Sequence record: NC_105436.1
Length of the DNA: 51,253 bases
Source: a phage
Direction: 5' to 3' (one strand)
How positions within the stretch are numbered: position 1 is the first letter of the stretch; the number at the start of each line of letters is the position of its first letter. A program made the translations under genes and the position numbers. The notes under the pieces are model-generated. The model was not told the DNA's origin. It ran no database searches and saw only the letters and a list, made by a program, of their open reading frames with translations. This document shows positions 732 through 51,253 of this stretch, piece by piece.

Positions 732-989
732 ATGAAAAAAGAGAGAAGCGTTTATTTAAATGAAACTGGCGAATGGTTGTTATTTCGCGCTATGGTGTGC
801 GATGCACTTGATAAAAATCCTAACGTGAAAAAGATGATTGATTGCGATCCGTGGGAATTTTCAAGCGCATTAGATATGAGCTTTGAGGAGACAAGAAAAC
901 TCCCGCTTGAAAAATGGCACGAACAAATCAGAAATGACATGCAAGAGTTTGTTGATTCGTGGAATTTTCAGCACGGAATGATCCACTAA
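732..989 (+). CDS. hypothetical protein
   Basis: 85-aa ORF starting 4 nt after the Dam stop; no recognisable motif. Confidence 0.5.
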   Translation: MKKERSVYLNETGEWLLFRAMVCDALDKNPNVKKMIDCDPWEFSSALDMSFEETRKLPLEKWHEQIRNDMQEFVDSWNFQHGMIH

Positions 990-1032
990 TATCATTTTTT
1001 GTTAAAACGCCCGGCATTTTGTCGGGCATAAT
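988..1032 (+). promoter_or_regulatory. box cassette: 21-bp box + hairpin spacer + -10-like CATAAT
   Basis: ATCATTTTTTGTTAAAAC then inverted repeat GCCCGGC...GTCGGGC, then CATAAT 22 nt after TTGTTA. Confidence 0.55.
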
Positions 1033-4205: not shown

Positions 4206-4253
4206 CAAATATACCCGACACTAGGCCGGGCGTTTTAACAAAAAATGCTATTC
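4206..4253 (-). promoter_or_regulatory. box cassette (minus strand)
   Basis: Minus strand reads ATAGCATTTTTTGTTAAAAC + hairpin + TATATT at 22-nt spacing, then conserved leader. Confidence 0.55.
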
Positions 4254-6341: not shown

Positions 6342-6371
6342 TCGTTAGCTTCTCCTTTGTGGGCCGTAAAT

Positions 6372-6416
6372 TTTAACGGCCCAATACTACCCCGTTTTGT
6401 CAAAAAGTGCTATTTG
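6372..6416 (-). promoter_or_regulatory. box cassette variant (TTGACA in place of TTGTTA)
   Basis: Minus strand AATAGCACTTTTTGACAAAAC, hairpin GGGCCGT/ACGGCCC with TAAAAT in the loop. Confidence 0.5.
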
Positions 6417-7043: not shown

Positions 7044-7088
7044 ATTATGCCAGGTTTTTACACCTGGCTTTTAACAAAAAGTGCTATT
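7044..7088 (-). promoter_or_regulatory. box cassette (minus strand)
   Basis: Box + hairpin GCCAGG/CCTGGC + CATAAT at 22-nt spacing. Confidence 0.55.
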
Positions 7089-11018: not shown

Positions 11019-11047
11019 TGCTATCTCCTGAGCGGTTCGTTTCGATG

Positions 11048-11097
11048 TGTGTAATGTACCCGATCAGGCGGCCTGAGTTTTAACAAAAAGTGCTATT
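11048..11097 (-). promoter_or_regulatory. box cassette (minus strand)
   Basis: Box + hairpin TCAGG/CCTGA + TACATT at 22-nt spacing + leader CATCGAAACGA. Confidence 0.55.
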
Positions 11098-11127
11098 TGA
11101 CGGTTAGCGCCAGGATTGTGATCGAAA

Positions 11128-11215
11128 TAATCAGAAGTAATCATTCGTAATCAAATCACGTCAAAATGATGATTGCCTTTGCAAATTTGATGAGAAAAGT
11201 AATCACGTTTAATCA
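11128..11215. repeat. iteron-like array of five TAATCA repeats
   Basis: TAATCA at 11128, 11138, 11148, 11200 and 11210, with 10-bp phasing within each group; in the divergent non-coding region. Confidence 0.5.
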
Positions 11216-11651
11216 TTGGTTGCAGGGGAGATAGTGAAACCTTCCCCTCTTGCCTCACTTTTCCGCCTGGCTGTCAGTGGTTGTTGTCTTTTGTTCACCC
11301 CTGTTACCGATTTCAGGCGGCGTGTTTCCGCGCGGTTTTCCGGTGTAGCGAAAACGGAAAAAACAAAGAAAATCCTCTATAATACATTGAAAATAAAGAT
11401 TATTTATTTATATATATCTATAATGTTTTCTTTTTGTTCTCACTGTTACAGTGCTTTTTGTTGGGTGTGGTGTGGTTGTGTGTTGGTATATATGGATAGT
11501 TGCGCGCGCGGCGGATTGCATATGTATATATACTTTTTCCGGCGGATTGCGTTAACAGCGTGAACAGAAAAATAACAGCCCTGAAATCAATAACTTGCGC
11601 ATGATTTTGTAGTTTTTCGATATTGGTAACGTTTTGAATACAACAAAAACA

Positions 11652-11680
11652 TTGACACGCACCAAATAGCTTTTATAATG
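11652..11680 (+). promoter_or_regulatory. consensus sigma70-type promoter (TTGACA-17-TATAAT)
   Basis: TTGACA at 11652-11657, 17-bp spacer, TATAAT at 11675-11680; 30 nt upstream of the first rightward gene. Confidence 0.7.
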
Positions 11681-11710: not shown

Positions 11711-12175
11711 ATGGAACAGAAAACCACTAAGGACTATTGCGATTGGCTTCGCGAGCTTGGTCGCCGCCTGGCTAGTGGCGATATTGAAGAGTATAAAATG
11801 TCACTAATTGACCTGGCCGGAATGTTAAGCGGTGACGACTGCTACAAGATCACGCGCAGTTCATCCTACAGCCGGACCATTATCAACCGCGTTCCAGAAG
11901 TAAGGGCCGCAGGTCGGGTAAGTATCAAGGTCGAGGAAACGGAAGATGATAAATTTTACGTTTTCCGCATGGTCCACGAATCGAAAAGGAAAATCATCAC
12001 ACCCGAAGAATTGCCAGCCATCAAGGCAAGGGCGATCAAAAAGTTTGCCGATCGCTTACTGGCAGCAATCCCGAACATCGTGGACCTGGAAGGGGATAAA
12101 CTGGCTGGAGCTTGTGAGGGCGTAAGCCGCTACCAGGATATGATCCGCGAAATCATCAAAGAGGAGGAGCAATAA
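11711..12175 (+). CDS. hypothetical protein (first gene downstream of consensus sigma70 promoter)
   Basis: Start at ATG 11711 with RBS GGAGG; sits 30 nt downstream of the TTGACA-17-TATAAT promoter. Confidence 0.55.
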   Translation: MEQKTTKDYCDWLRELGRRLASGDIEEYKMSLIDLAGMLSGDDCYKITRSSSYSRTIINRVPEVRAAGRVSIKVEETEDDKFYVFRMVHESKRKIITPEELPAIKARAIKKFADRLLAAIPNIVDLEGDKLAGACEGVSRYQDMIREIIKEEEQ

Positions 12176-12435
12176 TGAAAAAGGCATTAATCGGCGTTTT
12201 GGCGGCAATGGCACTCCTGACCGGATGCGAAAAGGCATCAGAATCAACGGTTGTCGTAGGCGTGGAGTCAGATTTCAAAGTCGGTCGCCTGTTCACTGTT
12301 GACGGATGCACAGCATACAGATTCTATGATAACGGTCGCGCGATCTATTACACCAATTGCAAAGGCGCAACGGATAGCACGTACAACAGCGGAAAGAACG
12401 TAATGCACCAGCAAGTCACAACAGATATTAAATAG
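12175..12435 (+). CDS. putative lipoprotein
   Basis: Signal peptide with lipobox LTGC; 86 aa, two further Cys in the mature part. Confidence 0.6.
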   Translation: MKKALIGVLAAMALLTGCEKASESTVVVGVESDFKVGRLFTVDGCTAYRFYDNGRAIYYTNCKGATDSTYNSGKNVMHQQVTTDIK

Positions 12436-12475
12436 CACTTTTTGTTAAAACGCCAGGCGCAAAGCCTGGCATAAT
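12431..12475 (+). promoter_or_regulatory. box cassette
   Basis: AATAGCACTTTTTGTTAAAAC + hairpin GCCAGG/CCTGGC + CATAAT. Confidence 0.55.
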
Positions 12476-12507
12476 AGCCTCATCGAAACGAGATTGAGGA
12501 AACAAAA

Positions 12508-12693
12508 ATGGCACGTCGCATCACCAAAGACCTTAAAGTCCTGAACAAAGAAAACGTAGTTAAAATCCTGGTTATCTGGGGCTACAACGAAGAAACAGCA
12601 AAGCAGAAGGTAGAGGCAGGTTATGATCTTGCTGTAAAAGCAATGCCAAACGACGACGCCAAAGGCATTGCAAACTATGTAGCGTTCTTTTAA
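12508..12693 (+). CDS. hypothetical protein
   Basis: 61-aa ORF after box cassette. Confidence 0.45.
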   Translation: MARRITKDLKVLNKENVVKILVIWGYNEETAKQKVEAGYDLAVKAMPNDDAKGIANYVAFF

Positions 12694-12708
12694 TTAGCAG
12701 GTGAATAA

Positions 12709-12894
12709 ATGAAAACGAAATTAGTCCATAAATCAGAAATCAAGATTGGCGATACCGTGATTCACAACGGCGAGCTTAGAACGGTTGGCAAAGAGTCAAT
12801 AAGCCACGATGAATTTATGGGGATCTTGTTGTTCGGTGACTCTTATCGTCTTGGTTACAAGATGGTTGAGCTTGTGGAAGAGGTAAAATTCTAA
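12709..12894 (+). CDS. hypothetical protein
   Basis: 61-aa ORF. Confidence 0.45.
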   Translation: MKTKLVHKSEIKIGDTVIHNGELRTVGKESISHDEFMGILLFGDSYRLGYKMVELVEEVKF

Positions 12895-12938
12895 ATAGCA
12901 CTTTTTGTTAAAACTCGAAAACGATAACCAGGCATAAT
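12895..12938 (+). promoter_or_regulatory. box cassette
   Basis: Box + 22-nt spacer + CATAAT. Confidence 0.55.
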
Positions 12939-12993
12939 AAATCACATAGGGCGGCACGGCGTCGCCCAGTTAAACAAATCAGGAGAAAGCACC

Positions 12994-13887
12994 ATGTTAA
13001 AACTTGCTGACATTAAATTCCCGATCACCTTCGAATCTCGCGGCATTGGTCATTACACTTTTACCGATGAAAAAACATGCCATAAGGTTGATATGAATAG
13101 CGACAAATTAAGCCCATCAACAATGGAGATTGAACACTTTATTGATGCGCACAATACGCATTACAACGCACTTAAAGACTACGGCTACGCAATGCCAGGC
13201 TACACATGCTTGCACTACAAGCCATATAAGGGCCAGGTGTTACCAGTGCGCTCACCGGAACGCGCAGAGATTCCGATGGTCCATATGAAAACCTGCGACT
13301 ACAAAAAACTGTGGTGCTTAAGTCTGGACAATATCAAGTATCCGATCACGTTCCACACGACTGGTAAGTCAACGATTCGCTACACATCGCGCGACAATGG
13401 CGTTTATAGCGATGGTACGAAATCAGAGTTGAAAGTCGATTTCTTTGTCAATGGTCACAACAAATTCAATCCGCACAACGAAGAGGATAAAGTGTATTAC
13501 GTGGAAGACATTACAAAACACTTGTTTGGAGAAACTCCATTCGGCGGCGGGAAGACGGCAATTCAGAAAATCATTGGCGAGGAGATCCATAAAGCGGCTG
13601 TCGAAATGAAAGCGCCTGGAGGCTGGCGTATTGACAAGAGCGCCTTTGCCTATCAAGAAATCGTAACGCAGGGCGCGATTGAAGATATGCCAGTTACAGC
13701 CACGCTAAAAGGAGTCCGGCTTGATGACGGCAGTTGGTATGAATTAACGGCTACACCAAAGACGATCGAAATTCATGATGATGTTGTTATCCTTCTGCTT
13801 CACTACGGCGGCACTAAAAACCGGACTGTTGCAGGTGAGATCAGCATCAAGCGCGGAACGATGGTTAAGTGGAAGGTGAAGATTTGA
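12994..13887 (+). CDS. hypothetical protein with internal tandem duplication
   Basis: 297 aa; two related segments (DIKFPITFES...HFIDAHNTHYN and NIKYPITFHT...FFVNGHNKFNPHN). Confidence 0.55.
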   Translation: MLKLADIKFPITFESRGIGHYTFTDEKTCHKVDMNSDKLSPSTMEIEHFIDAHNTHYNALKDYGYAMPGYTCLHYKPYKGQVLPVRSPERAEIPMVHMKTCDYKKLWCLSLDNIKYPITFHTTGKSTIRYTSRDNGVYSDGTKSELKVDFFVNGHNKFNPHNEEDKVYYVEDITKHLFGETPFGGGKTAIQKIIGEEIHKAAVEMKAPGGWRIDKSAFAYQEIVTQGAIEDMPVTATLKGVRLDDGSWYELTATPKTIEIHDDVVILLLHYGGTKNRTVAGEISIKRGTMVKWKVKI

Positions 13888-13963
13888 GTTTGTTCACTGC
13901 GGCGCACGTCGCCGCATGGATCGGATTGTTTGCCTACCTGTTTAGCTTTTATTGAGGTGAGAG

Positions 13964-14116
13964 ATGGCTACATGGATTTTGCTGATTCTTATGATTGATG
14001 GCGGCGTTGACCATATCGAAATGAATAGCCAGCAATCTTGCATTGAGGCACGAGAGCAGATCAAGAACAACAACAGGTTTTATGCGTACACTCGCACGCT
14101 ATGTATTAAGAAATAG
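13964..14116 (+). CDS. hypothetical small protein
   Basis: 50-codon ORF with RBS GAGGTGAGAG; its TAG stop is embedded in the next box. Confidence 0.3.
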   Translation: MATWILLILMIDGGVDHIEMNSQQSCIEAREQIKNNNRFYAYTRTLCIKK

Positions 14117-14155
14117 CACTTTTTGTTAAAACTCAAATGTGGGGCCAGGTATAAT
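14112..14155 (+). promoter_or_regulatory. box cassette
   Basis: Box + hairpin GGCC/GGCC with TATAAT in the loop. Confidence 0.55.
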
Positions 14156-14185
14156 GGCCTCACTTTCAACGAAGGAGATAAAACG

Positions 14186-14416
14186 ATGTACATTAAAAAG
14201 AAGATGAAATGCGTTTCCGTTAACTATGCTTGCTCTGGCATGTTCAAGCCTGGCGAAATCTATACGGCGCAAAAACTGAAAACATCAACCGGATCTTTTT
14301 ACGTGAGCAATAGTAAGGGACATCGCATGTTCCTGAACGGCGGCGAAGGCACTAAGGTTATGGCACACGCTATGGTAATGGCTGAATTTGAGGAGGTGAA
14401 AGATGAAAACAAATAA
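14186..14416 (+). CDS. hypothetical protein
   Basis: Start at ATG 14186 after RBS AAGGAG. Confidence 0.5.
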   Translation: MYIKKKMKCVSVNYACSGMFKPGEIYTAQKLKTSTGSFYVSNSKGHRMFLNGGEGTKVMAHAMVMAEFEEVKDENK

Positions 14417-14624
14417 TCGCGTCAAGCACAGGTTTACTGATAACCAAGGAGACGCGATTGATGTATACAAGTTCGGCGATCGCGTGTTTATTGATGGCAC
14501 GTTTGAAGGTGGTCGCAGGCCGGATTTTAGGTCGATACTTACCGTTGACCAAGTGCGCAAGCTGGCAGATAAGTTAAATGATCTGGCAGATGAAATAGAA
14601 TACAGGCAAATCCATTTTAATTGA
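14403..14624 (+). CDS. hypothetical protein
   Basis: 73-aa ORF with RBS GAGGAGG. Confidence 0.45.
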   Translation: MKTNNRVKHRFTDNQGDAIDVYKFGDRVFIDGTFEGGRRPDFRSILTVDQVRKLADKLNDLADEIEYRQIHFN

Positions 14625-14635
14625 TAGGTTTGATA

Positions 14636-15346
14636 ATGAAAAAATACACTTTCGAACTGTGGGGCAAGAAGTACGAATTAATCACCAGCAAGCCGATTGT
14701 TATCGTTGACCTGGACGGAACACTATCGGACGGTTCGCATCGTTTGCATTTGCTGCCAACTGAAAACTTGCACCTTACGGAATCGTGGCGCGAGTTTAAC
14801 AGGGCCGCCGCCGGAGATTCACCGATTAAAAGCACGATCGCGGTTATTAACGGTTTATGGGTGTCGGGATTTGCCATCGTCATCTTGACCGGACGCAGCG
14901 ACGAGGTTCGCTATGAAACCTGCAAATGGTTGAATGAGAACGGCGTGAAGTTTGACGAAATCATCATGCGCCGCCAGGAGGACAACCGAAAGGATACTGT
15001 TATTAAAGAAGAAGCCTTGCGCGCTATTGGCCTGGACAACATTGTTTGCGCCTTTGACGATTCGCCGAACGTGGTTAAGCACTTCCGCAGCTTGGGGATC
15101 ACAACCTATCAGGTCACGGAATACGACAAGCCACACGCTCACATACAATCTCACGGCGTGGAATCAATAAAGATCACGAAGCGCGCCCGATTCGTCGGCA
15201 GCAAAGACAGCCTGGTCAATGCCAGCTTTATCAAAGGCAAGGTTTATGATGTTCATAGCCATGATAAAAACCGATTCTTTTTGTGGGATGAAAAAGGTTT
15301 TGGCTGGTGCTTTGAACACGACGACGGCGATTTTGTTAATGCGTAA
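14636..15346 (+). CDS. HAD-superfamily phosphatase (nucleotidase or polynucleotide 3'-phosphatase-like)
   Basis: DxDGT motif (VIVDLDGTLSDG) near the N-terminus; start taken at ATG 14636. Confidence 0.6.
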   Translation: MKKYTFELWGKKYELITSKPIVIVDLDGTLSDGSHRLHLLPTENLHLTESWREFNRAAAGDSPIKSTIAVINGLWVSGFAIVILTGRSDEVRYETCKWLNENGVKFDEIIMRRQEDNRKDTVIKEEALRAIGLDNIVCAFDDSPNVVKHFRSLGITTYQVTEYDKPHAHIQSHGVESIKITKRARFVGSKDSLVNASFIKGKVYDVHSHDKNRFFLWDEKGFGWCFEHDDGDFVNA

Positions 15347-15388
15347 TAGCACTTTTTGTTAAAACATCTTAACGGGCTTGCGGTATAG
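15345..15388 (+). promoter_or_regulatory. box cassette
   Basis: Box + hairpin GGGCTT/AAGCCC with TATAGT in the loop + leader CCCATCGACAACGAAAGAGGA. Confidence 0.55.
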
Positions 15389-15420
15389 TAAGCCCATCGA
15401 CAACGAAAGAGGAAACAACG

Positions 15421-15720
15421 ATGTTAGTACGCAATGCGATGTATAAAATCAAATCTGATGAGCGTGTCCACCTGTTTCATGTGAACGAGCACGGCGACCT
15501 TTCGATCGCGATGTACCGTAACGACCGAGGCGGTTGCGAGGAATCAACAGGCGGTAAAGTGCATCCAATGTTTTTCATGTTCCGCCACAAGGCCGATCAA
15601 TACAGCCATCACAACCACTGGATCGGTGACTTGCTGCAATATGGGAAATTGGTTGCGTCGCACGTTGTAGATCCTGGCAAGTTAACCAGCCGCCAGCTTC
15701 GCAAAATGGCGCGCAAATAG
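15421..15720 (+). CDS. hypothetical protein
   Basis: 99-aa ORF after box cassette and conserved leader. Confidence 0.5.
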   Translation: MLVRNAMYKIKSDERVHLFHVNEHGDLSIAMYRNDRGGCEESTGGKVHPMFFMFRHKADQYSHHNHWIGDLLQYGKLVASHVVDPGKLTSRQLRKMARK

Positions 15721-15759
15721 CACTTTTGTTAAAATCAACTTTACGGCCTGCGGTATAGT
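15716..15759 (+). promoter_or_regulatory. box cassette (near-duplicate of 15345-15388)
   Basis: Box (one T shorter) + TATAGT + leader CCCATCAACAACAAACGAGGA. Confidence 0.55.
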
Positions 15760-15790
15760 AAGCCCATCAACAACAAACGAGGATTAAATC

Positions 15791-16054
15791 ATGGCTAACA
15801 AGATCGAATTTTTTAAAGCGGTAGACATTATCGACGGCGCGCCTAGCTTCTTCGCTATCCATTCTATTGACGGCAAGGATATTGGGTACAACGTTATCCG
15901 TCGAGATGGAATATCAAAACTTAGTGACCTGGTAGGCCATATTGTGTCAATCGGGAAATGCGCATGGCCCGATTCGCCACGAGAGCCACGCCGCCGCGAC
16001 ATGGTAGAGCCTGTTCTGCTTTACACTCTGGTAGTAGAAGGAGAAAATAAATGA
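15791..16054 (+). CDS. hypothetical protein
   Basis: 87-aa ORF after near-duplicate box cassette and leader. Confidence 0.5.
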   Translation: MANKIEFFKAVDIIDGAPSFFAIHSIDGKDIGYNVIRRDGISKLSDLVGHIVSIGKCAWPDSPREPRRRDMVEPVLLYTLVVEGENK

Positions 16055-16236
16055 TTTGGTTACTTGCTTTTTTGGTTGTTTTTCTTTACATTTCAGGCTT
16101 GTTTACGTTCCGCGCGTTGGTGAAATATTCTGACACGACAGACAAAGACGATAAAATCGTTCTCGCTTTCTGGTTTGTTTGGGTGTGGTTAGCAATTTAC
16201 GAGATCATCAGAGACAAACAGAAATTTGAGTGGTGA
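16051..16236 (+). CDS. hypothetical membrane protein
   Basis: 61 aa with two hydrophobic helices. Confidence 0.45.
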   Translation: MIWLLAFLVVFLYISGLFTFRALVKYSDTTDKDDKIVLAFWFVWVWLAIYEIIRDKQKFEW

Positions 16237-16293
16237 TTCTTGCTATGGCGCATTCATGCAGTGCGCCATGTTGAGAAAACCTAAAGGGGGGAA

Positions 16294-16446
16294 ATGATGC
16301 GTAACTTTGAAAAAATCATTACCAAAAAGAAGCGTCGCGGGTACGATGAGCATGTGGAGCTTGTGAAAAAGCAACGCAAGAAGCGCAACGAAGACAAGAA
16401 GCGCGGGAAAAAATTTAATGCGATTTTTCGCTATGGAGATCATTAA
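16294..16446 (+). CDS. hypothetical small basic protein
   Basis: 50-codon K/R-rich ORF with RBS AAAGGGGGG. Confidence 0.3.
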   Translation: MMRNFEKIITKKKRRGYDEHVELVKKQRKKRNEDKKRGKKFNAIFRYGDH

Positions 16447-16448
16447 TC

Positions 16449-17039
16449 ATGAAACGAGACATTATTATCCTTAATGGGCCGCCTGGCTGTGGAAAGGACA
16501 CTATTGCAGCTTACCTAACGGGCCATCGTTACCCAGCGGTTAAGGCGTCATTCAAGCAGCCGATGTTCGATATTGCGTTTTCCATGCTGGGCGTGTACAG
16601 ATACGATGAATTTATGGACCTGTACAACGACCGAGAACAAAAAGAAAAGCCTCAAGTTATTTTGGGCGGCAAGTCACCGCGACAATTCATGATCTGGATT
16701 AGTGAGGAGGTCATGAAGCCAGTTTTTGGTGATCACTATTTCGGGCGTCGAATGGTTGAAGAAATTCACGAGATGTACCGAGATTTGGCAGTTGTGATCA
16801 GTGATGGCGGATTCCCCGAAGAAATCAAGCCGCTCGTTAAGGCGGGGCATGAGGTGCATATTTGCCGATTGCATCGCGACGGCTTCACGTTTGCTGGCGA
16901 TTCGCGAAACTATATTGACCTGAGCGGTTATCACTATCGAATCCATCACTATGATTTCCACTTGCAGGATGGCAAGCCTGAACTGGCTGTAAACGAGATC
17001 GTCAATGCTGTCAAATGGAAGCACACAAAGATTAAATAG
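16449..17039 (+). CDS. P-loop nucleotide/nucleoside kinase-like protein
   Basis: Walker A at the N-terminus (ILNGPPGCGKDT); size and motif placement resemble phage dNMP kinases or polynucleotide kinase domains. Confidence 0.55.
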   Translation: MKRDIIILNGPPGCGKDTIAAYLTGHRYPAVKASFKQPMFDIAFSMLGVYRYDEFMDLYNDREQKEKPQVILGGKSPRQFMIWISEEVMKPVFGDHYFGRRMVEEIHEMYRDLAVVISDGGFPEEIKPLVKAGHEVHICRLHRDGFTFAGDSRNYIDLSGYHYRIHHYDFHLQDGKPELAVNEIVNAVKWKHTKIK

Positions 17040-17079
17040 CACGAATTGCTAAACGCGGGGCGCAATGCCTCGCTATAAT
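17035..17079 (+). promoter_or_regulatory. box cassette variant
   Basis: AATAGCACGAATTGCTAAAC + 22-nt spacer + TATAAT. Confidence 0.5.
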
Positions 17080-17109
17080 GCAAACACCAATCAACGAGAG
17101 GAAATCACA

Positions 17110-17490
17110 ATGGTTAACATCCGAAAAATCCGCGTCGGCACTAAATTCTTAGTTACTTACGCAATTCCAGAGAGCGGAATGAAGAAGGGCCAGATTGTTA
17201 AGGTTGATAGCAAAAGGTTCGGAATCCCTGGTATCAATGGCTATCTAATCAATAGAGATCTTGGATTCGACGGATTCGCTATCCGTGCGCTTGAGGGTAT
17301 TGTTGCCACTCTTAAACGAATCACTAATCATCGCGGCTGCCCAATCAAGACGATTAAAGCGCCAGTAAATTACGGCAAACTGGATAATCGTCGAATCCGC
17401 CGCCTGGCGCGTAACGCGTTAAAATTCCGTGGCGTAGGCGATGATTTCTACTGTGGATACAAGAGGATTGCGCGCAATGCTGGGAAATAA
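17110..17490 (+). CDS. hypothetical protein
   Basis: Start at ATG 17110 after RBS GAGAGGA. Confidence 0.45.
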   Translation: MVNIRKIRVGTKFLVTYAIPESGMKKGQIVKVDSKRFGIPGINGYLINRDLGFDGFAIRALEGIVATLKRITNHRGCPIKTIKAPVNYGKLDNRRIRRLARNALKFRGVGDDFYCGYKRIARNAGK

Positions 17491-17516
17491 CAATAACGCA
17501 ACGAATCCTAAGCCAC

Positions 17517-17565
17517 CTTTTGATTTTCATTCCGCAATGATTGCGGTATTATCAATGCTACTTTT
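17517..17565 (+). promoter_or_regulatory. degenerate box cassette
   Basis: CACCTTTTGATTTTC + palindrome CCGCAATGATTGCGG + TATTAT. Confidence 0.35.
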
Positions 17566-17589
17566 TCTTTATAGCATGAGGGCGCTACT

Positions 17590-17853
17590 ATGGTTTTTAA
17601 CGCATTGAAACGACTGTTTAAGCCGGAATACCGGATCGTTGCTTGCACAGAATGCAAGATTTATTATCTGCAACGCCGCCGCGTTATTAGTGGGGATTGG
17701 GAATATCTGACGGATGATGCTTTCGGCTTTTGGGCTATGGAGTTCAATAGCTACAGCGAAGCGCGCGAATACGCTAAAAAGTTGCACAAGTTCAGACCTT
17801 ACAAGCTGCGTTTGCTGGTTGTCAAAAAGTGCGACGTATGGGATCACGAATGA
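17590..17853 (+). CDS. hypothetical protein
   Basis: 87-aa ORF. Confidence 0.45.
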   Translation: MVFNALKRLFKPEYRIVACTECKIYYLQRRRVISGDWEYLTDDAFGFWAMEFNSYSEAREYAKKLHKFRPYKLRLLVVKKCDVWDHE

Positions 17854-18026
17854 AAAGAGTAATTATCACCTTTATTGCCATTATCGCTGGTTCCCACTTG
17901 GCATATGGGTATAGCGGCATTGTTGAGTCAATCGGCGGAATGATTATCTTCCTAGCTGGCGCATGTTACGGCTACGGCGATGGATTTAAAAACGGCAAGC
18001 GTTACATCCTGACCGGGAAGAAATAA
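17850..18026 (+). CDS. hypothetical membrane protein
   Basis: ATGA overlap with upstream stop; two hydrophobic segments. Confidence 0.4.
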   Translation: MKRVIITFIAIIAGSHLAYGYSGIVESIGGMIIFLAGACYGYGDGFKNGKRYILTGKK

Positions 18027-18069
18027 TGTTTAATCGCGCCGCTTCGGTGGCGCTAAAAGGAGGAAAAAA

Positions 18070-18357
18070 ATGGCTAAAAGCAATCGTAAGATGTTGATTA
18101 ACGCATTCGAAAAGGCAGCGCTTGAGCGTGGTTGGAATGACTCATTTCACACGGCAAACTGTATCCGCAGTTACGGATTCAAGAATTGCCGCTCATGGGC
18201 ACGTGAAATGGCGTCATGGTATGATTTTGATGCTCATTACCTTGATATGGATTGCGCCCTGGTTGAAATGATTGAACAGGCAGCATTAGAGGATCGACCA
18301 TTAACGCAATCTGATTTTGACGATTTTGTGCGCGATGAGCTTTACTATCTGAGCTAA
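18070..18357 (+). CDS. hypothetical protein
   Basis: 95-aa ORF with RBS AGGAGG. Confidence 0.5.
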   Translation: MAKSNRKMLINAFEKAALERGWNDSFHTANCIRSYGFKNCRSWAREMASWYDFDAHYLDMDCALVEMIEQAALEDRPLTQSDFDDFVRDELYYLS

Positions 18358-18399
18358 TAGCACTTTTTGTTAAAACTTCCGCAAGGGCATTTGGTAAAG
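18356..18399 (+). promoter_or_regulatory. box cassette
   Basis: Box + hairpin AAGGGCA/TGCCCTT with TAAAGT in the loop. Confidence 0.5.
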
Positions 18400-18432
18400 T
18401 GCCCTTATTGAAGCGAAACAGAGGAAAGCGCA

Positions 18433-21010: not shown

Positions 21011-22578
21011 TGATCATATGGGAAGATTTGACGGCGGCGCAAAAGCGAGCCATTAAAGAAATCAGTGAGCATTCATTCGAAAAGATGATCAGGATCTGGT
21101 TCCAGTTATTGCAGGGGCAAAAATTCCAGAGCAACTGGCATTTTAGCTTATTGTGCAGTGAGGTAGAGAAGATCATCAATGGAGAGTCGCAGAATGTGAT
21201 TTTCAACATTACGCCAGGTAGCGGCAAGACTGAGATTTTCTCGATCCACATGTCACCCTACGCGTCATTGAAAAGCCGGAAAGTGAGAAACCTTAACCTT
21301 TCGTTTAGTGATGGCCTTGTGCAGCAAAACAGCAACCGGATAAAGGAGATTATTGGTTCTCCTGAGTGGCAAGAGCTATGGCCTGGAAAACTGGCAAAGG
21401 CGAGCGCTAAAGATCTGATAGTCACCGAAGGCGGCAAGGTTAAATTGCAGGTTAACTCACGTTCTATTGGCGGCCAGGTAACAGGTTTGCGTGGCGGCTA
21501 TATGGATGATGGTTTTACTGGTATGCTGGTTCTTGACGATCCAGACAAGCCGGATGATATGCTTTCTAAGGTCAAGCGCGAGGCTATTCACATGCGGTTA
21601 AAAAACACAGTGCGATCGCGTCGAATGAAAGACACAACGCCGATTGTTATGGTGCAACAGCGACTACACGTTAATGATTCCACATGGTTCATGCTTAATG
21701 GCGGAATGGGTGGTATTGAGTTTAAAGTCGTGAGCATTCCTGCGCTGGTTACGAAAGAATACCGCGAAACGCTTCCTGATTGGTTGAAGCCTGAATTTGA
21801 TCGTGATGTGCTGTCAAGTAAGCCAGTGATGATAGATGGCGTTGCTCATTATTCATTTTGGCCTGCGAAGGAAAGCGCGGAGGAGTTGCTTGCATTGCGC
21901 AATGCAGATCCTTACACGTTCGCCAGCCAATACCAACAGCAACCAATCGCGCTTGGCGGGAACGTGTTTAAAACAGAGTGGTTCCAGTATTACGGCAGCG
22001 GAGAAAAGTGCGCACTACCAAAACCGGATCGCTTTGAATACACATTTATTACTGGAGATACCGCGCAGAAGGCCGGAGAGCTTAACGACTATTCAGTTTT
22101 TTGTTATTGGGGGATGTATAAGAATCGCGTTTACTTCATTGATGGCATTCGCGGAAAGTGGGAAGCGCCGGATCTTGAATTAAATTTTATTGCCTTCGTT
22201 AACCAGTGCTGGAAGCGCAATAAGGAGTGTGGCAGCTTGCGACGTATCCACATTGAAGATAAGGCCAGCGGCACGGGTTTGATTCAGGGGGCCAAAAAGA
22301 AGATCCCGATTGATATAAATCCCGTTCAGCGAAGCAATGACAAGGTGACGCGAGCAATGGACGCCGCGCCAGTAATGAGGGCCGGACGTGTGGCGCTGCC
22401 AGAAAATCACCCCATGCTGCCTGAGATACTGGCAGAGGTTGCAGCATTCACTTTTGATGATTCTCATCCCCATGATGATATTGTCGATAATATAGTTGAT
22501 GCTGTTAACGTCGAAATGAACTTGGCAGATGATCCGGTGGCAAGGATGAAAAAGCTGGCTGGTCTACGCAATAAATAG
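21010..22578 (+). CDS. terminase large subunit
   Basis: Walker A (NITPGSGKTEIFS), Walker B-like (LVLDDPDKPDD), 522 aa. Confidence 0.85.
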   Translation: MIIWEDLTAAQKRAIKEISEHSFEKMIRIWFQLLQGQKFQSNWHFSLLCSEVEKIINGESQNVIFNITPGSGKTEIFSIHMSPYASLKSRKVRNLNLSFSDGLVQQNSNRIKEIIGSPEWQELWPGKLAKASAKDLIVTEGGKVKLQVNSRSIGGQVTGLRGGYMDDGFTGMLVLDDPDKPDDMLSKVKREAIHMRLKNTVRSRRMKDTTPIVMVQQRLHVNDSTWFMLNGGMGGIEFKVVSIPALVTKEYRETLPDWLKPEFDRDVLSSKPVMIDGVAHYSFWPAKESAEELLALRNADPYTFASQYQQQPIALGGNVFKTEWFQYYGSGEKCALPKPDRFEYTFITGDTAQKAGELNDYSVFCYWGMYKNRVYFIDGIRGKWEAPDLELNFIAFVNQCWKRNKECGSLRRIHIEDKASGTGLIQGAKKKIPIDINPVQRSNDKVTRAMDAAPVMRAGRVALPENHPMLPEILAEVAAFTFDDSHPHDDIVDNIVDAVNVEMNLADDPVARMKKLAGLRNK

Positions 22579-22603
22579 CACTAATTGCTAAAAAGTTATA
22601 TAA
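22573..22603 (+). promoter_or_regulatory. box variant upstream of portal gene
   Basis: AATAGCACTAATTGCTAAAAAG followed by TATATAAT at shorter spacing, then terminator-like hairpin. Confidence 0.4.
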
Positions 22604-22607
22604 TCAA

Positions 22608-22632
22608 GGCTGGATTTTTCCAGCCTTTTTTA
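22608..22632 (+). terminator. terminator-like hairpin + T-run
   Basis: GGCTGG/CCAGCC stem + T6, immediately followed by ATTATGGAG. Confidence 0.5.
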
Positions 22633-22648
22633 TTATGGAGATTTGACT

Positions 22649-27192: not shown

Positions 27193-27220
27193 TTGCACGT
27201 TTAACAAAAAGTGCTATCAT
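27193..27220 (+). promoter_or_regulatory. sigma70-like promoter (TTGCAC-16-TATCAT) with inverted box as spacer
   Basis: Spacer GTTTAACAAAAAGTGC is the reverse complement of the box core; upstream of the major capsid gene. Confidence 0.5.
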
Positions 27221-30882: not shown

Positions 30883-30885
30883 AAC

Positions 30886-30908
30886 AAGGGGCGTTGCGCC
30901 CCTTTTTT
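30886..30908 (+). terminator. rho-independent terminator candidate
   Basis: AAGGGGCG/CGCCCCTT stem + T6, after the tail tube gene. Confidence 0.65.
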
Positions 30909-30942
30909 CATTCCTGTAAAATCAATCTATCAAATAAATTAA

Positions 30943-30968
30943 TTCCACTTTTAACAAAAAGTGCTATA
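30943..30968 (+). promoter_or_regulatory. inverted box copy upstream of tail chaperone gene
   Basis: CACTTTTAACAAAAAGTGCTATAAGGAG: reverse-orientation box abutting the RBS. Confidence 0.4.
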
Positions 30969-36851: not shown

Positions 36852-36900
36852 GTGCCTTTATAATGTGCAAACCAAGAAACAGCACAAAAGGTTAAAAGTC

Positions 36901-41677: not shown

Positions 41678-41702
41678 TACTCCTTAGTTGTTGTTGACTG
41701 TA

Positions 41703-41746
41703 ACTATACACGATCCGGCAAGCCGAGTTTAGCAAAAAGTGCTACT
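41703..41746 (-). promoter_or_regulatory. box cassette variant (minus strand)
   Basis: Minus strand AGTAGCACTTTTTGCTAAAC + 21-nt spacer + TATAGT; upstream of the lipoprotein gene. Confidence 0.5.
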
Positions 41747-47154: not shown

Positions 47155-47170
47155 AGCATTTTCAAGTGTA

Positions 47171-48140: not shown

Positions 48141-48152
48141 AGCAACCTCAAT

Positions 48153-48187
48153 AAAAAAGCCCAGCAAATATTATCATTTCGCTGGGC
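48153..48187 (-). terminator. terminator-like hairpin (minus strand)
   Basis: Minus strand GCCCAGC...GCTGGGC stem + T6 between the HTH gene and primase. Confidence 0.45.
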
Positions 48188-48194
48188 CTTATCA

Positions 48195-48671
48195 TTAGCT
48201 ATTCGTGCTGTTATCACCTTTGTAGAATCGTCCGCCTGGTTCGTAGTCTGAATTTTTGACTACGCGCAACATTTCGTATTTGTCGCAACGTGTAGTAAGA
48301 GGCTTGCCGTTAGAATCAAACCGCAGATCTGGACGACAAAACGAGGCGCGGTATCCTTTGCATCCATTATATTTGTAGTCGTTATGCACCTTTTGTGCTC
48401 CAGCGGCTGAAATCATACCACGCTTTCGCCACTGGTTAACGACTTGCTGAGATACGCGCAGACGTCGAGCCATAGCAGGAACACCGCCGTAATACTCGAT
48501 CAGAATGTCAAGGCGAGATTTCAGGCTTGCTTTTACCTCATCTCGCAGGATAAGAAATCCGGTTCGGTGTTTTCGTGGCTTTTTGTCTTTACCTCGTCGC
48601 GTTCCGTTGTTACCGTTAATAGTGCGCTTGTCGATCTCACCCGTAGACACTGCAATTCGTGCATCTTTCAT
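48195..48671 (-). CDS. putative HTH DNA-binding protein
   Basis: Helix-turn-helix-like segment (GGVPAMARRLRVSQQVVNQWRKRG); Cys-containing C-terminal region; divergent from the helicase gene. Confidence 0.45.
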   Translation of the reverse strand: MKDARIAVSTGEIDKRTINGNNGTRRGKDKKPRKHRTGFLILRDEVKASLKSRLDILIEYYGGVPAMARRLRVSQQVVNQWRKRGMISAAGAQKVHNDYKYNGCKGYRASFCRPDLRFDSNGKPLTTRCDKYEMLRVVKNSDYEPGGRFYKGDNSTNS

Positions 48672-48680
48672 CTAGTCACC

Positions 48681-48726
48681 TCATAGCATTTTTTGTTAAA
48701 ACAGTTTATTGTAATGAGTCTATTAT
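48681..48726 (+). promoter_or_regulatory. box cassette upstream of helicase
   Basis: CATAGCATTTTTTGTTAAAAC + 22-nt spacer + TATTAT. Confidence 0.55.
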
Positions 48727-48758
48727 ATACTCCAAATGGCATTTTTTAAAGGTTTAAG

Positions 48759-50756: not shown

Positions 50757-51175
50757 TGGCTATAACTGATAAAGGCGATTATCTTGAGTTTTACGAAAGA
50801 GATCCAACCGACACGAGAAGGGAAGTTAATCACCAGATAGATAGTTTTCAGTGGTTGACTTATGCTCATCCTTATTTGCTGGCGTGGCATACGGTAAACG
50901 AGAATGAGAAGTCTAAAGCAACGGCGATGATTGATCAGCAGTCAGGCTTGGTTAAGGGTGTAAGCGATTTCATCATCCTGATTGGTTTAAACGGAAAATA
51001 CCCATTTGCAGCGATTGAGATCAAGCGAGTTAATAAATCAGGCAAGGGGAAAGCATCACCAGTCAGCGATGAACAAAAGGCTTTTTTGCGTCGAGTTCGC
51101 AGCTTAGGAGGATTCGCTGCGGTCGCCTACGGATTTAATCAGTTTAAGTTGGCTATTGAATACATGCTTAAATAG
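50756..51175 (+). CDS. VRR-NUC domain nuclease
   Basis: PD-(D/E)XK-like core (SDFIIL ... AIEIKR) in a 139-aa protein directly after the helicase. Confidence 0.6.
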   Translation: MAITDKGDYLEFYERDPTDTRREVNHQIDSFQWLTYAHPYLLAWHTVNENEKSKATAMIDQQSGLVKGVSDFIILIGLNGKYPFAAIEIKRVNKSGKGKASPVSDEQKAFLRRVRSLGGFAAVAYGFNQFKLAIEYMLK

Positions 51176-51214
51176 CACTTTTTGTTAAAACTGGCGCGAT
51201 GGATTGCGCCATAA
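51171..51214 (+). promoter_or_regulatory. box cassette at window end
   Basis: Box + hairpin GGCGC/GCGCC + CATAAT; followed by GGAGAAATGA at the very end of the window. Confidence 0.55.
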
Positions 51215-51253
51215 TTCAATAACACGAGATGGCTTTTAATAGCGGAGAAATGA

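What the first reader, a model, noticed from the sequence alone, without database searches (positions are those of the whole stretch)
12431..18399. Variable-sequence inverted repeats fill the box-to--10 spacer, often with the -10 hexamer in the hairpin loop
Each cassette carries a 5-8 bp inverted repeat between the box and the -10 element, with different stem sequences in different copies (GCCAGG/CCTGGC, GGGCTT/AAGCCC, AAGGGCA/TGCCCTT, GGCGC/GCGCC, GGGCCGT/ACGGCCC). In several copies the -10 hexamer lies in the loop (14140-14160, 15373-15394, 18382-18405, 6372-6393). Conservation of pairing but not sequence points to a structural role: cruciform or hairpin extrusion exposing a single-stranded -10 (as in phage N4 hairpin promoters), or an RNA stem-loop if transcription starts upstream. 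The hairpins are not followed by U-tracts, so they are not typical intrinsic terminators.
Basis: seen in the sequence. Interest (0 to 1): 0.7.

Follow-up and report, generated by a model that had tools for sequence, protein, structure and literature searches.

The report
Promoter cassettes with built-in RNA hairpins
In this T1-like coliphage, most of the small repeated promoter cassettes between genes carry their own GC-rich hairpin tucked into the unconstrained bases around the -10 element; the evidence favours an RNA stem-loop that ends or protects the upstream gene's transcript, much like the promoter/stem-loop cassettes known from T4-like phages, and not a DNA cruciform promoter.

Summary
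The window is a whole Warwickvirus (Drexlerviridae, T1-like) genome. It has about 18 cassettes: upstream stop codon, 20-nt box ATAGCACnnnTTGnTAAAA, 18-nt spacer, extended -10 (TGnTATAAT-like), likely start site, RBS. Eleven of the 18 have a significant hairpin (5 of 7 in the reported range). Either it fills the spacer (class A) or it holds the -10 in its loop (class B).

Across 168 non-redundant cassettes from T1-like phages:
- Mean folding energy is -9.95 kcal/mol, against -6.7 for chimeras that keep positional composition.
- Orthologous cassettes show compensatory changes and complete hairpin replacement.
- No single consensus structure exists.

Four results point to an RNA element of read-through transcripts, not a cruciform or N4-type promoter:
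- The sense strand folds better than the antisense strand (p = 6.5e-11).
- GNRA and UNCG tetraloops are enriched in sense orientation.
- Hairpins go with an upstream co-directional ORF.
- Hairpins are absent at all three divergent-junction cassettes.

No U-tract is selected, so most are not classical terminators. I read them as attenuators or 3'-end stabilisers. The closest known system is the PeSL cassettes of T4-type phages, and homology breakpoints here also fall at the boxes. The box itself is a published, unexplained 21-nt repeat. I rate this a new variant of a known kind, of moderate interest.

The parts
12432..12451 (+). Box (21-nt T1-like direct repeat); the upstream ORF 12175-12435 stops on the TAG inside it
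   Evidence: consensus aaATAGCACnnnTTGnTAAAA in PMC11447400
12452..12470 (+). Class A hairpin GCCAGGC-GCAAA-GCCTGGC that fills the 18-nt spacer. Its last C is the first base of the -10 CATAAT (12470-12475). Predicted start site near 12482.
   Evidence: -15.7 kcal/mol, z -3.3. pSf-1 ortholog has C-G changed to T-A. Other relatives carry a class B hairpin before the same gene.
12895..12938 (+). Cassette with box and -10 (12933-12938) but no spacer hairpin. A separate hairpin lies in the 5' UTR at about 12949-12967.
   Evidence: MFE -0.6, z +1.0
14113..14132 (+). Box of cassette 14113
14139..14163 (+). Class B hairpin with the -10 TATAAT (14150-14155) in the loop; the stem includes one G.U pair
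   Evidence: -16.4, z -4.45. Sense -16.4 against antisense -12.7.
15346..15365 (+). Box of cassette 15346
15374..15395 (+). Class B hairpin GGGCTTGC/GTAAGCCC with most of the -10 TATAGT (15384-15389) in the loop
   Evidence: -14.9, z -4.0
15717..15775 (+). Paralogous cassette (box one T shorter, -10 at 15754-15759) whose stem has decayed (GGCCT against AAGCC)
   Evidence: -7.0, z -1.1. Orthologs in L124 and L125 keep GGGCTT/AAGCCC.
17036..17054 (+). Box, GAA variant (ATAGCACGAATTGCTAAAC)
17055..17073 (+). Class A hairpin GCGGGGC-GCAAT-GCCTCGC (one G.U pair), directly followed by the -10 TATAAT (17074-17079)
   Evidence: -13.3, z -2.8. Orthologs have GCGGGG...CCCCGC.
18357..18376 (+). Box of cassette 18357
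18383..18406 (+). Class B hairpin AAGGGCA.../...TGCCCTT with the -10 TAAAGT (18395-18400) in the loop and inner stem
   Evidence: -17.7, z -3.6. pSf-1 ortholog has A-T changed to G-C plus a sense-strand G.U.
989..1032 (+). Cassette outside the reported range: box 989-1008, class A hairpin 1009-1027, -10 CATAAT 1027-1032, T-rich tail
   Evidence: -14.1, z -3.8; listed as terminator-like
4208..4251 (-). Cassette: box 4232-4251, class A hairpin 4213-4231 (two G.U pairs), -10 TATATT 4208-4213, T-rich tail
   Evidence: sense -14.3 against antisense -7.8; compensatory changes in L075 and L122
6360..6413 (-). Cassette: box 6394-6413, class B hairpin 6360-6383 with the -10 TAAAAT (6370-6375) in the loop
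   Evidence: -15.6, z -2.7
7044..7087 (-). Cassette: box 7068-7087, class A hairpin 7049-7068, -10 CATAAT 7044-7049
   Evidence: -14.0, z -4.8
51172..51215 (+). Cassette: box 51172-51191, class A hairpin 51192-51211, -10 CATAAT 51210-51215
   Evidence: -12.1, z -3.2
11037..11096 (-). Hairpin-less cassette: first leftward promoter at a divergent junction, with no upstream co-directional gene
   Evidence: z -0.2; 0 of 3 divergent-junction cassettes have hairpins
48683..48742 (+). Hairpin-less cassette at the divergent junction before the helicase gene
   Evidence: z +1.1
41686..41745 (-). Hairpin-less cassette at a divergent junction
   Evidence: z +0.4
48152..48211 (-). Box-like sequence, then a long hairpin with a -10-like TAATAT in the loop, then a T6 run: a canonical intrinsic terminator before the primase gene. 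It shows the continuum from cassette hairpin to terminator.
   Evidence: -19.5, z -5.3; orthologs with different stems all keep the T-run
22575..22633 (+). Box (TAA variant) followed by a true hairpin plus T-run terminator

Best explanation
Each cassette is a compact, portable 'end of one gene, start of the next' unit.

Layout, numbered from the first base of the box:
- 1-20: the conserved box. It often supplies the upstream gene's stop codon (TAA ATAG).
- 21-38: a spacer free in sequence.
- 36-44: an extended -10 (TGnTATAAT-like).
- 45-50: a C-rich discriminator.
- About 51: the start site (the A of CATCG).
- About 76: the start codon, preceded by the RBS.

The box plus the extended -10 is inferred to be the promoter, read by host RNA polymerase. 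The box either takes the place of a -35 element or is the site of an unknown factor.

The inverted repeat is not part of promoter recognition. It is an RNA stem-loop made when transcription arrives from the upstream gene. Because the intergenic space is almost entirely taken up by promoter signals, the stem has to use the only free positions:
- Class A: both arms lie in the spacer.
- Class B: one arm lies in the spacer and one in the discriminator, which puts the -10 in the loop.

In the read-through RNA the hairpin marks the 3' end of the upstream message. I think it works as a leaky terminator or attenuator, and as a block to 3' exonucleases. This insulates each promoter from upstream transcription and sets the 3' end of the upstream mRNA.

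Shown: the hairpins exist, are cassette-specific, are maintained in evolution, carry a sense-strand bias, and are associated with upstream genes.

Inferred: promoter function, the start site, and the attenuator or stabiliser activity.
For: 1. Real, cassette-specific pairing: -9.95 against -6.7 kcal/mol in chimeras, z about -24. Excess long runs of pairs occur at registers 29.5-31.5, 38.5 and 42.5.
2. Maintenance in evolution:
   - Compensatory changes in orthologs of 12432, 18357, 4251 and 9286, and class A replaced by class B before the same gene.
   - Within clusters, 51 double changes keep a pair and 18 break it.
   - Stem columns vary less than unpaired columns (23% against 36%, p = 5e-12).
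3. One-strand, sense signature:
   - Sense RNA is more stable than antisense in 118 against 48 cassettes (p = 6.5e-11).
   - The excess is -1.65 kcal/mol, against -0.6 in chimeras (z -6 to -9).
   - In the window, 10 of 11 hairpins are more stable in sense.
   - Of 16 tetraloops, GNRA plus UNCG number 8, against 1 for their antisense equivalents. Internal G.U against A.C mismatches are 8 to 2.
4. Link to upstream transcription:
   - Cassettes with a co-directional ORF of at least 60 codons ending at the box fold at -11.3, against -7.3 without one (p = 3e-6).
   - 90% of class A cassettes have such an ORF, against 53% of hairpin-less cassettes.
   - All 3 divergent-junction cassettes in the window lack hairpins.
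5. Continuum with true terminators:
   - 48211- and 22575+ have a box, a hairpin and a T-run.
   - 989+ and 4251- pass a terminator scan.
   - In phage TLS, the ARNold terminators T57 and T62 directly abut direct repeats DR10 and DR12.
6. Precedent: PeSL cassettes of T4-type phages have the same layout, with stem-loops 'between the -35 and -10 or overlapping the -10'. One such stem-loop terminated about as well as rrnB T1 in a lacZ reporter (PMC2839356).
7. Promoter anatomy: G37 0.77, A40 0.85 and T44 0.85 at a fixed distance from the box, then C50 A51.
Against: - There are no transcript 5' or 3' end data for any T1-like phage in the searchable literature. Promoter activity, the start site and the effect of the hairpins are all untested.
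- No U-tract is selected after the hairpins. T content after class A stems equals that of hairpin-less cassettes (2.36 against 2.26), and class B stems are followed by AUCGAAAC. Classical intrinsic termination is therefore unlikely for most copies.
- Within-cluster single substitutions show no G.U over A.C bias (57 against 48).
- No shared consensus structure can be shown on alignments. Support rests on per-sequence folding against chimeras.
- About half of the cassettes with an upstream ORF, by the strict WC-only stem call, do without a hairpin, so it is not essential.
- The hairpin travels with the downstream module in recombinants, not with the gene whose RNA it would end.
Confidence: 0.55

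Rival explanations
1. DNA-level structure. Under negative supercoiling the inverted repeat extrudes as a cruciform or hairpin. This pre-melts or exposes the -10 (class B), or changes the geometry between box and -10 (class A), and so tunes initiation by RNA polymerase.
For: - Class B puts an AT-rich -10 between GC-rich arms, which is a good nucleation site.
- The box carries a -35-like TTGnTA at a non-functional 22-bp spacing, so spacer geometry could matter.
- Hairpin centres are not random relative to the -10.
Against: - Sense-only extra stability, G.U pairs that become A.C on the other strand, and GNRA/UNCG loops argue for one strand.
- Class B loops of 8-15 nt are unfavourable for cruciforms.
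- Several registers are used, and 40-50% of cassettes have no repeat yet have equally good box and -10.
- Hairpins correlate with an upstream ORF and are missing at the first promoters of divergent units. A promoter-intrinsic role does not predict this.
- There is no phage RNA polymerase for an N4-type mechanism.
Confidence: 0.1
2. The hairpins are classical Rho-independent terminators, and the A/T-rich -10 hexamer doubles as the U-tract. The cassette is then a strict terminator-promoter overlap.
For: - 989+ and 4251- pass a terminator scan.
- Class A stems end exactly on the first base of the -10, and C39 is used in 50% of class A against 21% of hairpin-less cassettes.
- TLS T62 was predicted by ARNold directly after DR12.
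- 48211- and 22575+ are full terminators.
Against: - There is no enrichment of T after class A hairpins, and no preference for T-rich -10 variants.
- Class B hairpins are followed by AUCGAAAC with no U.
- Most tails have only 2 U in the first 5 nt.
Confidence: 0.15
3. The repeats are by-products or signals of cassette mobility. Recombination between boxes shuffles gene modules, and the palindromes are recombination or processing sites, or hitch-hiking remnants, with no role in expression.
For: - Homology breakpoints against five relatives fall within 1-5 nt of box edges about 16 times, where about 2 are expected.
- The box middle triplet switches between orthologs.
- The genome encodes exonuclease VIII, a single-strand-annealing protein and SSB.
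- PeSLs recombine in the same way.
Against: - Crossovers map to the box, not to the hairpin.
- Hairpin sequences differ between cassettes, so they give no homology.
- Purifying selection on stems, compensatory changes and the sense-strand bias are not explained by this reading.
Confidence: 0.1
4. Translational switch. The C-rich discriminator (CCUC/CCCC) would mask the downstream Shine-Dalgarno sequence in read-through RNA, and the G-rich 5' arm is there to neutralise it.
For: In 12432+, CCUCA can pair with UGAGG at the RBS. Composition is G-rich at positions 27-31 and C-rich at 47-50.
Against: There is no cassette-specific complementarity between positions 44-54, or 21-36, and the 5' UTR/SD region beyond permuted partners (z +1.2 and +0.3). 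The idea also does not explain class A.
Confidence: 0.03

Closest known systems
PeSL cassettes (promoter-early stem-loops) of T4-type phages RB49/phi1, PST and nt-1 (Arbiol et al. 2010, PMC2839356; Comeau et al. 2014, PMC4122927)
   Same: - Intergenic composite unit: upstream stop codon, promoter, stem-loop of variable sequence, SD, start codon.
- The stem-loop is most often between the upstream promoter element and the -10, or overlaps the -10.
- G-T pairs are tolerated.
- The cassettes are dense among small genes of unknown function.
- Indel and replacement breakpoints between relatives lie in the cassettes.
   Different: - Different phage family (Drexlerviridae siphovirus).
- The upstream element is an invariant 20-nt box ending 18 nt before an extended -10, not a -35 hexamer with an AT-rich tract.
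- Stems are not G(n)-loop-C(n).
- No promoter, terminator or mini-circle experiments exist for these cassettes.
21-nt direct repeats of T1-like phages (TLS DR1-18; Kropinski, Misra and co-workers 2024, PMC11447400)
   Same: The box is this repeat: consensus aaATAGCACnnnTTGnTAAAA, intergenic, in the direction of transcription, about 76 nt before the start codon, with TTT/GAA/AAA subtypes.
   Different: The paper treats the repeat alone and lists its function as an open question (stoperator, enhancer site or UP element). It does not mention the extended -10 at +18 nt, the start-site motif or the hairpins. Two of its predicted terminators (T57, T62) abut repeats without comment.
Intrinsic (Rho-independent) terminators and 3'-end stabilising stem-loops of E. 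coli mRNAs
   Same: GC-rich stem of 6-10 bp, often with GNRA or UNCG loops, placed just after a stop codon, with a sense-strand signature.
   Different: Most copies have no U-tract and none is selected. They resemble U-tract-less protective hairpins more than terminators. This comparison rests on general knowledge and was not tested here.
Phage N4 early hairpin promoters and single-strand promoters (F plasmid Frpo, ssi)
   Same: A short inverted repeat at a promoter.
   Different: - N4 needs its virion RNA polymerase and a fixed 5-7 bp stem with a 3-nt loop at a fixed position.
- Frpo rebuilds a duplex -35/-10 from single-stranded DNA.
- Here there is no phage polymerase, registers and loops vary, and the -10 is in the loop or outside the stem.
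Lambda nut sites (boxA plus boxB hairpin)
   Same: A conserved linear box followed by a short hairpin, both present in the RNA.
   Different: boxB loops are conserved and protein-specific, and nut lies downstream of the promoter. Here stems and loops differ in every copy and lie upstream of the cassette's own start site. Rfam gave no match.

Membership tests
PeSL-type composite promoter/stem-loop cassettes | The intergenic unit begins at the stop codon of the upstream gene and ends at the SD and start codon of the next | tested here: met
   In 140 of 234 cassettes the upstream ORF stops on the TAG of ATAG, and in 30 on TAA at -3. The RBS and ATG lie about 76 nt after the box start.
PeSL-type composite promoter/stem-loop cassettes | Strong sigma70-like promoter with -35 and -10 hexamers and an AT-rich upstream tract | tested here: inconclusive
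   An extended -10 is present at a fixed position. There is no -35 at 16-18 bp: TTGnTA lies 22 bp away, and only 14113+ is called by the consensus scan. A conserved box stands in its place. Activity is untested.
PeSL-type composite promoter/stem-loop cassettes | Stem-loop of variable sequence placed between the upstream element and the -10, or overlapping the -10 | tested here: met
   Classes A and B
PeSL-type composite promoter/stem-loop cassettes | Cassettes flank small accessory genes and coincide with indel or replacement breakpoints between close relatives | tested here: met
   Breakpoints at 9284, 9774, 12430 (x3), 14111, 15345, 15716 (x2), 4249 and 11098/9 against L121-L125
PeSL-type composite promoter/stem-loop cassettes | Promoter and terminator activity shown in reporters; belongs to T4-type myoviruses | not testable with these tools
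The host phage is a Drexlerviridae siphovirus, so this is an analogue and not a member by descent.
T1-like 21-nt direct repeat (TLS DR) | Consensus aaATAGCACnnnTTGnTAAAA, intergenic, co-oriented with genes, many copies per genome | tested here: met
   16 matches at up to 3 mismatches against 0 expected; consensus; definition
Intrinsic terminator | GC-rich hairpin directly followed by a U-rich tract | tested here: not met
   Hairpin: yes. The U-tract is absent in most copies and not enriched. It is met only by 48211-, 22575+ and, loosely, 989+ and 4251-.
N4-type hairpin promoter | Phage-encoded (virion) RNA polymerase that recognises the hairpin | tested here: not met
   No such gene is annotated in the 96%-identical FritzSarasin. 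The largest ORFs are the tail tip (1209 aa), tape measure and tail fibre proteins. TLS has no RNAP or sigma.
N4-type hairpin promoter | Hairpin of fixed size (5-7 bp stem, 3-nt loop) at a fixed position relative to the start site | tested here: not met
   Loops of 3-15 nt, several registers, and many cassettes without a hairpin
Rfam RNA families | Match to a curated covariance model | tested here: not met
   0 matches at gathering threshold over the whole window

The most novel reading that the evidence does not exclude
The cassettes form a self-insulating transcription system of a kind not yet described.
- The invariant box is bound by a phage or host factor that replaces -35 recognition at an extended -10 promoter.
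- The same bound complex, or the polymerase waiting at the promoter, acts as the pause or roadblock that lets a U-tract-less hairpin release polymerases arriving from upstream.
- Termination efficiency at every gene boundary would then be coupled to how busy the next promoter is.

This would answer the published open question about the T1-like 21-nt repeats. It would also define a hairpin-plus-roadblock terminator class.
Probability: 0.12. Interest if true: 0.7.

Novelty: new variant of a known kind. Interest (0 to 1): 0.5.

Why it matters
T1-like phages (Drexlerviridae) are common coliphages, frequent laboratory contaminants and therapy candidates. Their transcription is almost uncharted, and a 2024 paper lists the function of their 21-nt repeats as an open question.

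This analysis gives that question a concrete, testable anatomy:
- The repeat sits exactly 18 nt before an extended -10, with a predicted start site.
- Most copies carry a private RNA hairpin belonging to the upstream transcript.
- Gene modules are exchanged at the repeats.

It also suggests that promoter/stem-loop cassettes of the PeSL kind arose independently in an unrelated phage family. That would be a general solution for packing many small, individually expressed, swappable genes. The practical outcome is better promoter and terminator annotation for hundreds of deposited genomes.

Tried and rejected
- **Anti-Shine-Dalgarno switch.** There is no cassette-specific complementarity between the discriminator or spacer and the 5' UTR/SD. 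Rejected.
- **A single conserved secondary structure.**
  - Fixed-register pair counts on an unselected 138-sequence alignment are at shuffle level for register 30.5 (174/500) and only weakly above for 38.5 (27/500).
  - RNAalifold on mixed orthologs finds only a spurious helix inside the box.
  - Even orthologs shift register by 1 nt, so alignment-based covariation is the wrong tool here. I relied on per-sequence folding against chimeras and on reading true orthologs.
- **Selected U-tract.** Not found.
- **G.U against A.C among within-cluster single substitutions.** No bias (57 against 48). This weakens the RNA argument but does not overturn it.
- **Known RNA family.** None.
- **Transcript-end data for T1-like phages.** Four literature searches found none. 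Two of them were poorly framed and wasted. The Rtp genome paper is not held.
- **Exact box sequence in the literature.** Only the TLS paper has it.
- **The box as a promoter's own -10 (TGnTAAAAC).** Rejected, because the last position is C, A or G and almost never T.
- **Integron attC analogy (GTTRRRY-like end of the box plus a hairpin).** Considered from memory and dropped: there is no integrase, and crossovers map to the box.

Full report
**What the window is**

The 51,253-base window is a complete genome of a T1-like coliphage. It is 95-97% identical over the queried 7 kb to vB_EcoD_Poky, FritzSarasin (Bas04), vB_EcoS-95 and tonnikala. These belong to Drexlerviridae, Tempevirinae, genus Warwickvirus.

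The 'box' of the finding, ATAGCACTTTTTGTTAAAAC, occurs 16 times at up to 3 mismatches, against 0 expected. A looser search adds degenerate copies at 15717+, 17036+, 22575+, 41745-, 47122+ and 48211-.

**The box is already published, but unexplained**

The 2024 re-annotation of phage TLS reports a 21-nt direct repeat, aaATAGCACnnnTTGnTAAAA. It has 18 intergenic copies, is co-oriented with transcription and lies about 76 nt before start codons. It is also seen in T1, Rtp and Rogue1.

The authors suggest stoperators, enhancer sites or UP elements, and list its function among the open questions for T1-like phages (PMC11447400). They mention neither a -10 downstream nor hairpins. It is the only paper in the searchable library that contains the motif.

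**Anatomy of the cassette**

I collected cassettes from the window, from pieces of several dozen T1-like genomes in IMG/VR and from five GenBank relatives. That gave 292 and later 534 unique cassettes.

Numbered from the A of ATAGCAC:

| Positions | Feature |
|---|---|
| 1-20 | Box |
| 21-35 | Almost no information |
| 36-44 | T36 (0.48), G37 (0.77), n, T39 A40 (0.85) T41 A42 A43 T44 (0.85): an extended -10 |
| 47-50 | C-rich |
| 50-51 | C50 A51, then tCGAAAC: a pyrimidine-purine start site at the canonical distance |

- The -35-like TTGnTA inside the box lies 22 bp from the -10. The hexamer at the proper distance is TAAAAC.
- The unit therefore looks like an extended -10 promoter whose upstream half is the box. 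Promoter function and the start site are inferred; nothing here tests them.
- In 140 of 234 cassettes with a long upstream ORF, that ORF stops on the TAG of the box. In 30 more it stops on a TAA three bases before it.

**Check of the observation**

The official folds of 44-nt segments give significant hairpins for 11 of 18 window cassettes, with MFE -12.1 to -19.5 and z -2.4 to -5.3:
- 989+, 12432+, 14113+, 15346+, 17036+, 18357+, 51172+
- 4251-, 6413-, 7087-, and the box-like 48211-

No hairpin is found at 12895+, 15717+ (decayed), 9286-, 9792-, 11096-, 41745- and 48683+. 'Each cassette' is therefore an overstatement (5 of 7 in the reported range), but the phenomenon is real.

Family-wide, the mean MFE of positions 19-56 is:
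- -7.76 in 156 non-redundant cassettes, against -4.41 +/- 0.17 for flank shuffles and -5.3 to -5.7 +/- 0.16 for chimeras.
- -9.95 in the enlarged set of 168, against -6.78 +/- 0.13 and -6.61 +/- 0.14 for chimeras.

The chimeras keep position-specific composition. The signal is therefore complementarity specific to each cassette, not the G-rich spacer meeting a C-rich discriminator.

**Two architectures**

Hairpin centres are bimodal.
- **Class A:** a 6-9 bp GC-rich stem with a 4-6 nt loop, centred at positions 29-31.5. It fills the spacer and ends on the first base of the -10. C39 occurs in 50% of class A cassettes, against 21% of hairpin-less ones.
- **Class B:** arms at about 27-34 and 43-53, centred at 38-40. 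The -10 lies in the loop, and the 3' arm covers the discriminator and the predicted start site.
- A minor group is centred at 42.5-45.

Class counts depend on the method:

| Method | Set | A | B | Other | None |
|---|---|---|---|---|---|
| RNAfold | 138 | 39 | 31 | 15 | 53 |
| Strict Watson-Crick-only | 168 | 30 | 33 | 25 | 80 |

**Are the stems maintained?**

Cassettes that precede the same gene in different phages show textbook compensation:
- 12432: GCCAGGC/GCCTGGC becomes GCCAGGT/ACCTGGC in pSf-1.
- 18357: AAGGGCA/TGCCCTT becomes GAGGGCA/TGTCCTC (A-T to G-C, plus a G.U).
- 4251: GCCCGGC/GTCGGGT becomes ACCCGAT/ATCGGGT.
- 9286 orthologs: GATGCGCT/AGCGCATC in one relative and ATGCGGTAA/TTACCGCAT in another, although the downstream sequence is 98-100% identical.
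- The gene after 12432 is preceded by a class A hairpin in Warwickvirus and Hanrivervirus, and by a class B hairpin in other relatives.

Within 75%-identity clusters:
- 51 double changes keep a pair and 18 break it.
- Stem columns vary less than unpaired columns of the same free regions (23.4% against 36.2%, p = 5e-12).

Selection is therefore for 'a hairpin here', not for one structure. Consistent with that, fixed-register counts on an unselected alignment are at or near shuffle level, and RNAalifold finds no shared hairpin.

**DNA or RNA, and which strand?**

Several independent measures favour the sense strand.
- Sense RNA folds better than antisense in 118 against 48 non-redundant cassettes (mean -9.95 against -8.29, Wilcoxon p = 6.5e-11).
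- Chimeras show only a -0.6 kcal/mol compositional bias, against -1.65 observed (z -6 to -9).
- In the window, 10 of 11 hairpins are more stable in sense (sum -167.6 against -143.8).
- Of 16 tetraloops closed by Watson-Crick pairs, 5 are GNRA and 3 UNCG, where under one is expected. Their antisense equivalents number 0 and 1 (12 against 2 by the RNAfold classification).
- Internal mismatches are G.U 8 against A.C 2.

One measure does not follow: within-cluster single substitutions go to G.U 57 times and to A.C 48 times.

A cruciform needs both strands to pair and gains nothing from RNA tetraloops, so these data argue against the DNA-level model. Because class A and much of class B lie upstream of the cassette's own predicted start site, the RNA in question must come from upstream.

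**Link to upstream transcription**
- Non-redundant cassettes with a co-directional ORF of at least 60 codons ending at the box fold at -11.33, against -7.32 for the rest (p = 2.9e-6; unique set).
- 90% of class A and 76% of class B cassettes have such an ORF, against 53% of hairpin-less cassettes (Fisher p = 3e-4 for A against none).
- The three window cassettes that open divergent transcription units (11096-, 41745-, 48683+) all lack hairpins (0 of 3 against 11 of 15, p = 0.043).
- A perfect sigma70 consensus promoter at 11652-11679 lies upstream of the rightward cassette series. It would supply read-through transcripts.

**What the hairpins do**

Most are not classical terminators.
- T content after class A stems equals that of hairpin-less cassettes (2.36 against 2.26).
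- T-rich -10 variants are not preferred.
- Class B stems are followed by AUCGAAAC.

There is nevertheless a continuum with real terminators.
- 48211- is a box-like sequence, then a long hairpin with TAATAT in the loop, then T6, before the primase gene. Its orthologs keep the T-run behind quite different stems.
- 22575+ is a box followed by a full terminator.
- 989+ and 4251- pass a terminator-like scan.
- In TLS, the ARNold terminators T57 and T62 start directly after DR10 and DR12.

I therefore read the hairpins as attenuators and/or 3'-end protecting stem-loops of the upstream message, squeezed into the only free positions of a very crowded intergenic unit. This step is inference.

**Closest known system**

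PeSLs (promoter-early stem-loops) of the T4-type phages RB49 and phi1 are described as follows (PMC2839356; PMC4122927):
- Stop codon of the upstream gene, AT-rich tract, -35, -10, a stem-loop, SD and ATG.
- One stem-loop reduced lacZ expression about as much as rrnB T1.
- Recombination between PeSLs shuffles small genes.

The same shuffling is visible here. Homology breakpoints between the window and five relatives fall within 1-5 nt of a box edge about 16 times among about 92 endpoints, where about 2 are expected. Examples are 9284, 9774, 12430 (x3), 14111, 15345, 15716 (x2), 4249 and 11098/9. The middle triplet of the box switches between TTT and GAA in orthologous cassettes.

The differences are the phage family, the invariant box in place of a -35, and the lack of any experiment.

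**Rejected ideas**
- An anti-SD switch has no support.
- N4-type promoters need a virion RNA polymerase that these phages lack, and a fixed hairpin geometry that is not seen.
- No Rfam family matches.

**Verdict**

The system is a new variant of a known kind, a PeSL-like composite cassette built on the unexplained T1-like 21-nt repeat. Interest is moderate. It turns a published open question into a specific, testable model, but the logic has a precedent and all function is still inferred.

Noticed in passing
window 11097-11680: About 580 bp with no annotated gene lie between the divergent leftward and rightward early units. The stretch holds five or six (A/G)TAATCA repeats (11125-11220), a very AT-rich block (11370-11430), two exact CGGCGGATTGC copies 31 nt apart (11509, 11540) and a perfect sigma70 consensus promoter, TTGACA-16-TATAAT, at 11652-11679. 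It could be an origin or an immediate-early control region.
   Followed up: partly
window 27198-27217 (-) and 30948-30967 (-): Two boxes point against the late structural operon. The second has a -10-like TAGATT and faces a bidirectional terminator (about 30885-30915). It is conserved in relatives. These could be antisense or early-against-late promoters.
   Followed up: partly
window 36879-36898 (+): A box variant, ACAGCACAAAAGGTTAAAAG, lies immediately before an ATG at the start of the J-like tail tip gene. It corresponds to TLS DR8. Its AAGG may serve as the RBS, and it has no -10 at +18, so this copy is not a promoter cassette.
   Followed up: no
window 48195-48671 (-): A 158-aa protein has weak Cro/YdaS-type helix-turn-helix matches (below Pfam cut-offs) and is annotated 'putative transcriptional regulator' in FritzSarasin. 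It lies between the hairpin-less cassette 48683+ and the box-like terminator 48211-. It is a candidate box-binding factor, untested.
   Followed up: partly
all cassettes, positions -3 to 4 (for example window 12429-12435): The sequence TAA ATAG at the start of the box supplies stop codons in two frames. In 140 of 234 cassettes the upstream ORF ends on the TAG, so the box is a portable translation stop as well.
   Followed up: yes
cassette positions 27-34 (for example window 51199-51205, loop GATGGATT): A G-run followed by A/T (GGGAAT or GGAT) is semi-conserved at -24 to -17 whatever the hairpin class. In class A it forms GGA-containing loops (AGGA, TGGA, ACGGAA, AGGGAA). It could be a protein or polymerase contact, or a CsrA-like GGA loop. 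Unexplained.
   Followed up: no
window 14113 and 15717 against L122, L123, L125: Orthologous cassettes differ in the middle triplet of the box (TTT against GAA), while spacer and gene are 92-98% identical. This suggests gene conversion or crossover inside the box.
   Followed up: partly
window 47122-47141 (+): A box copy with a damaged 3' end (…TTGCTAATGA) sits on the strand opposite the lateral tail fibre gene start, next to a strong - strand terminator (about 47165-47195). It is conserved in L121 and L123. It may be a remnant or an antisense promoter.
   Followed up: no
cassette positions 50-61 (for example window 12481-12492): The initial transcribed sequence CATCGAAACGA (or CATCGACAACGA) is conserved across most cassettes and phages. 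It is A-rich and G-poor, and could be a shared 5' leader, an RNase E site or a translation enhancer.
   Followed up: no
TLS genome (L023, L024); PMC11447400 Table S1: The published ARNold terminators T57 (35178-35214) and T62 (39643-39660) begin directly after direct repeats DR10 and DR12. The paper does not comment on the adjacency.
   Followed up: yes
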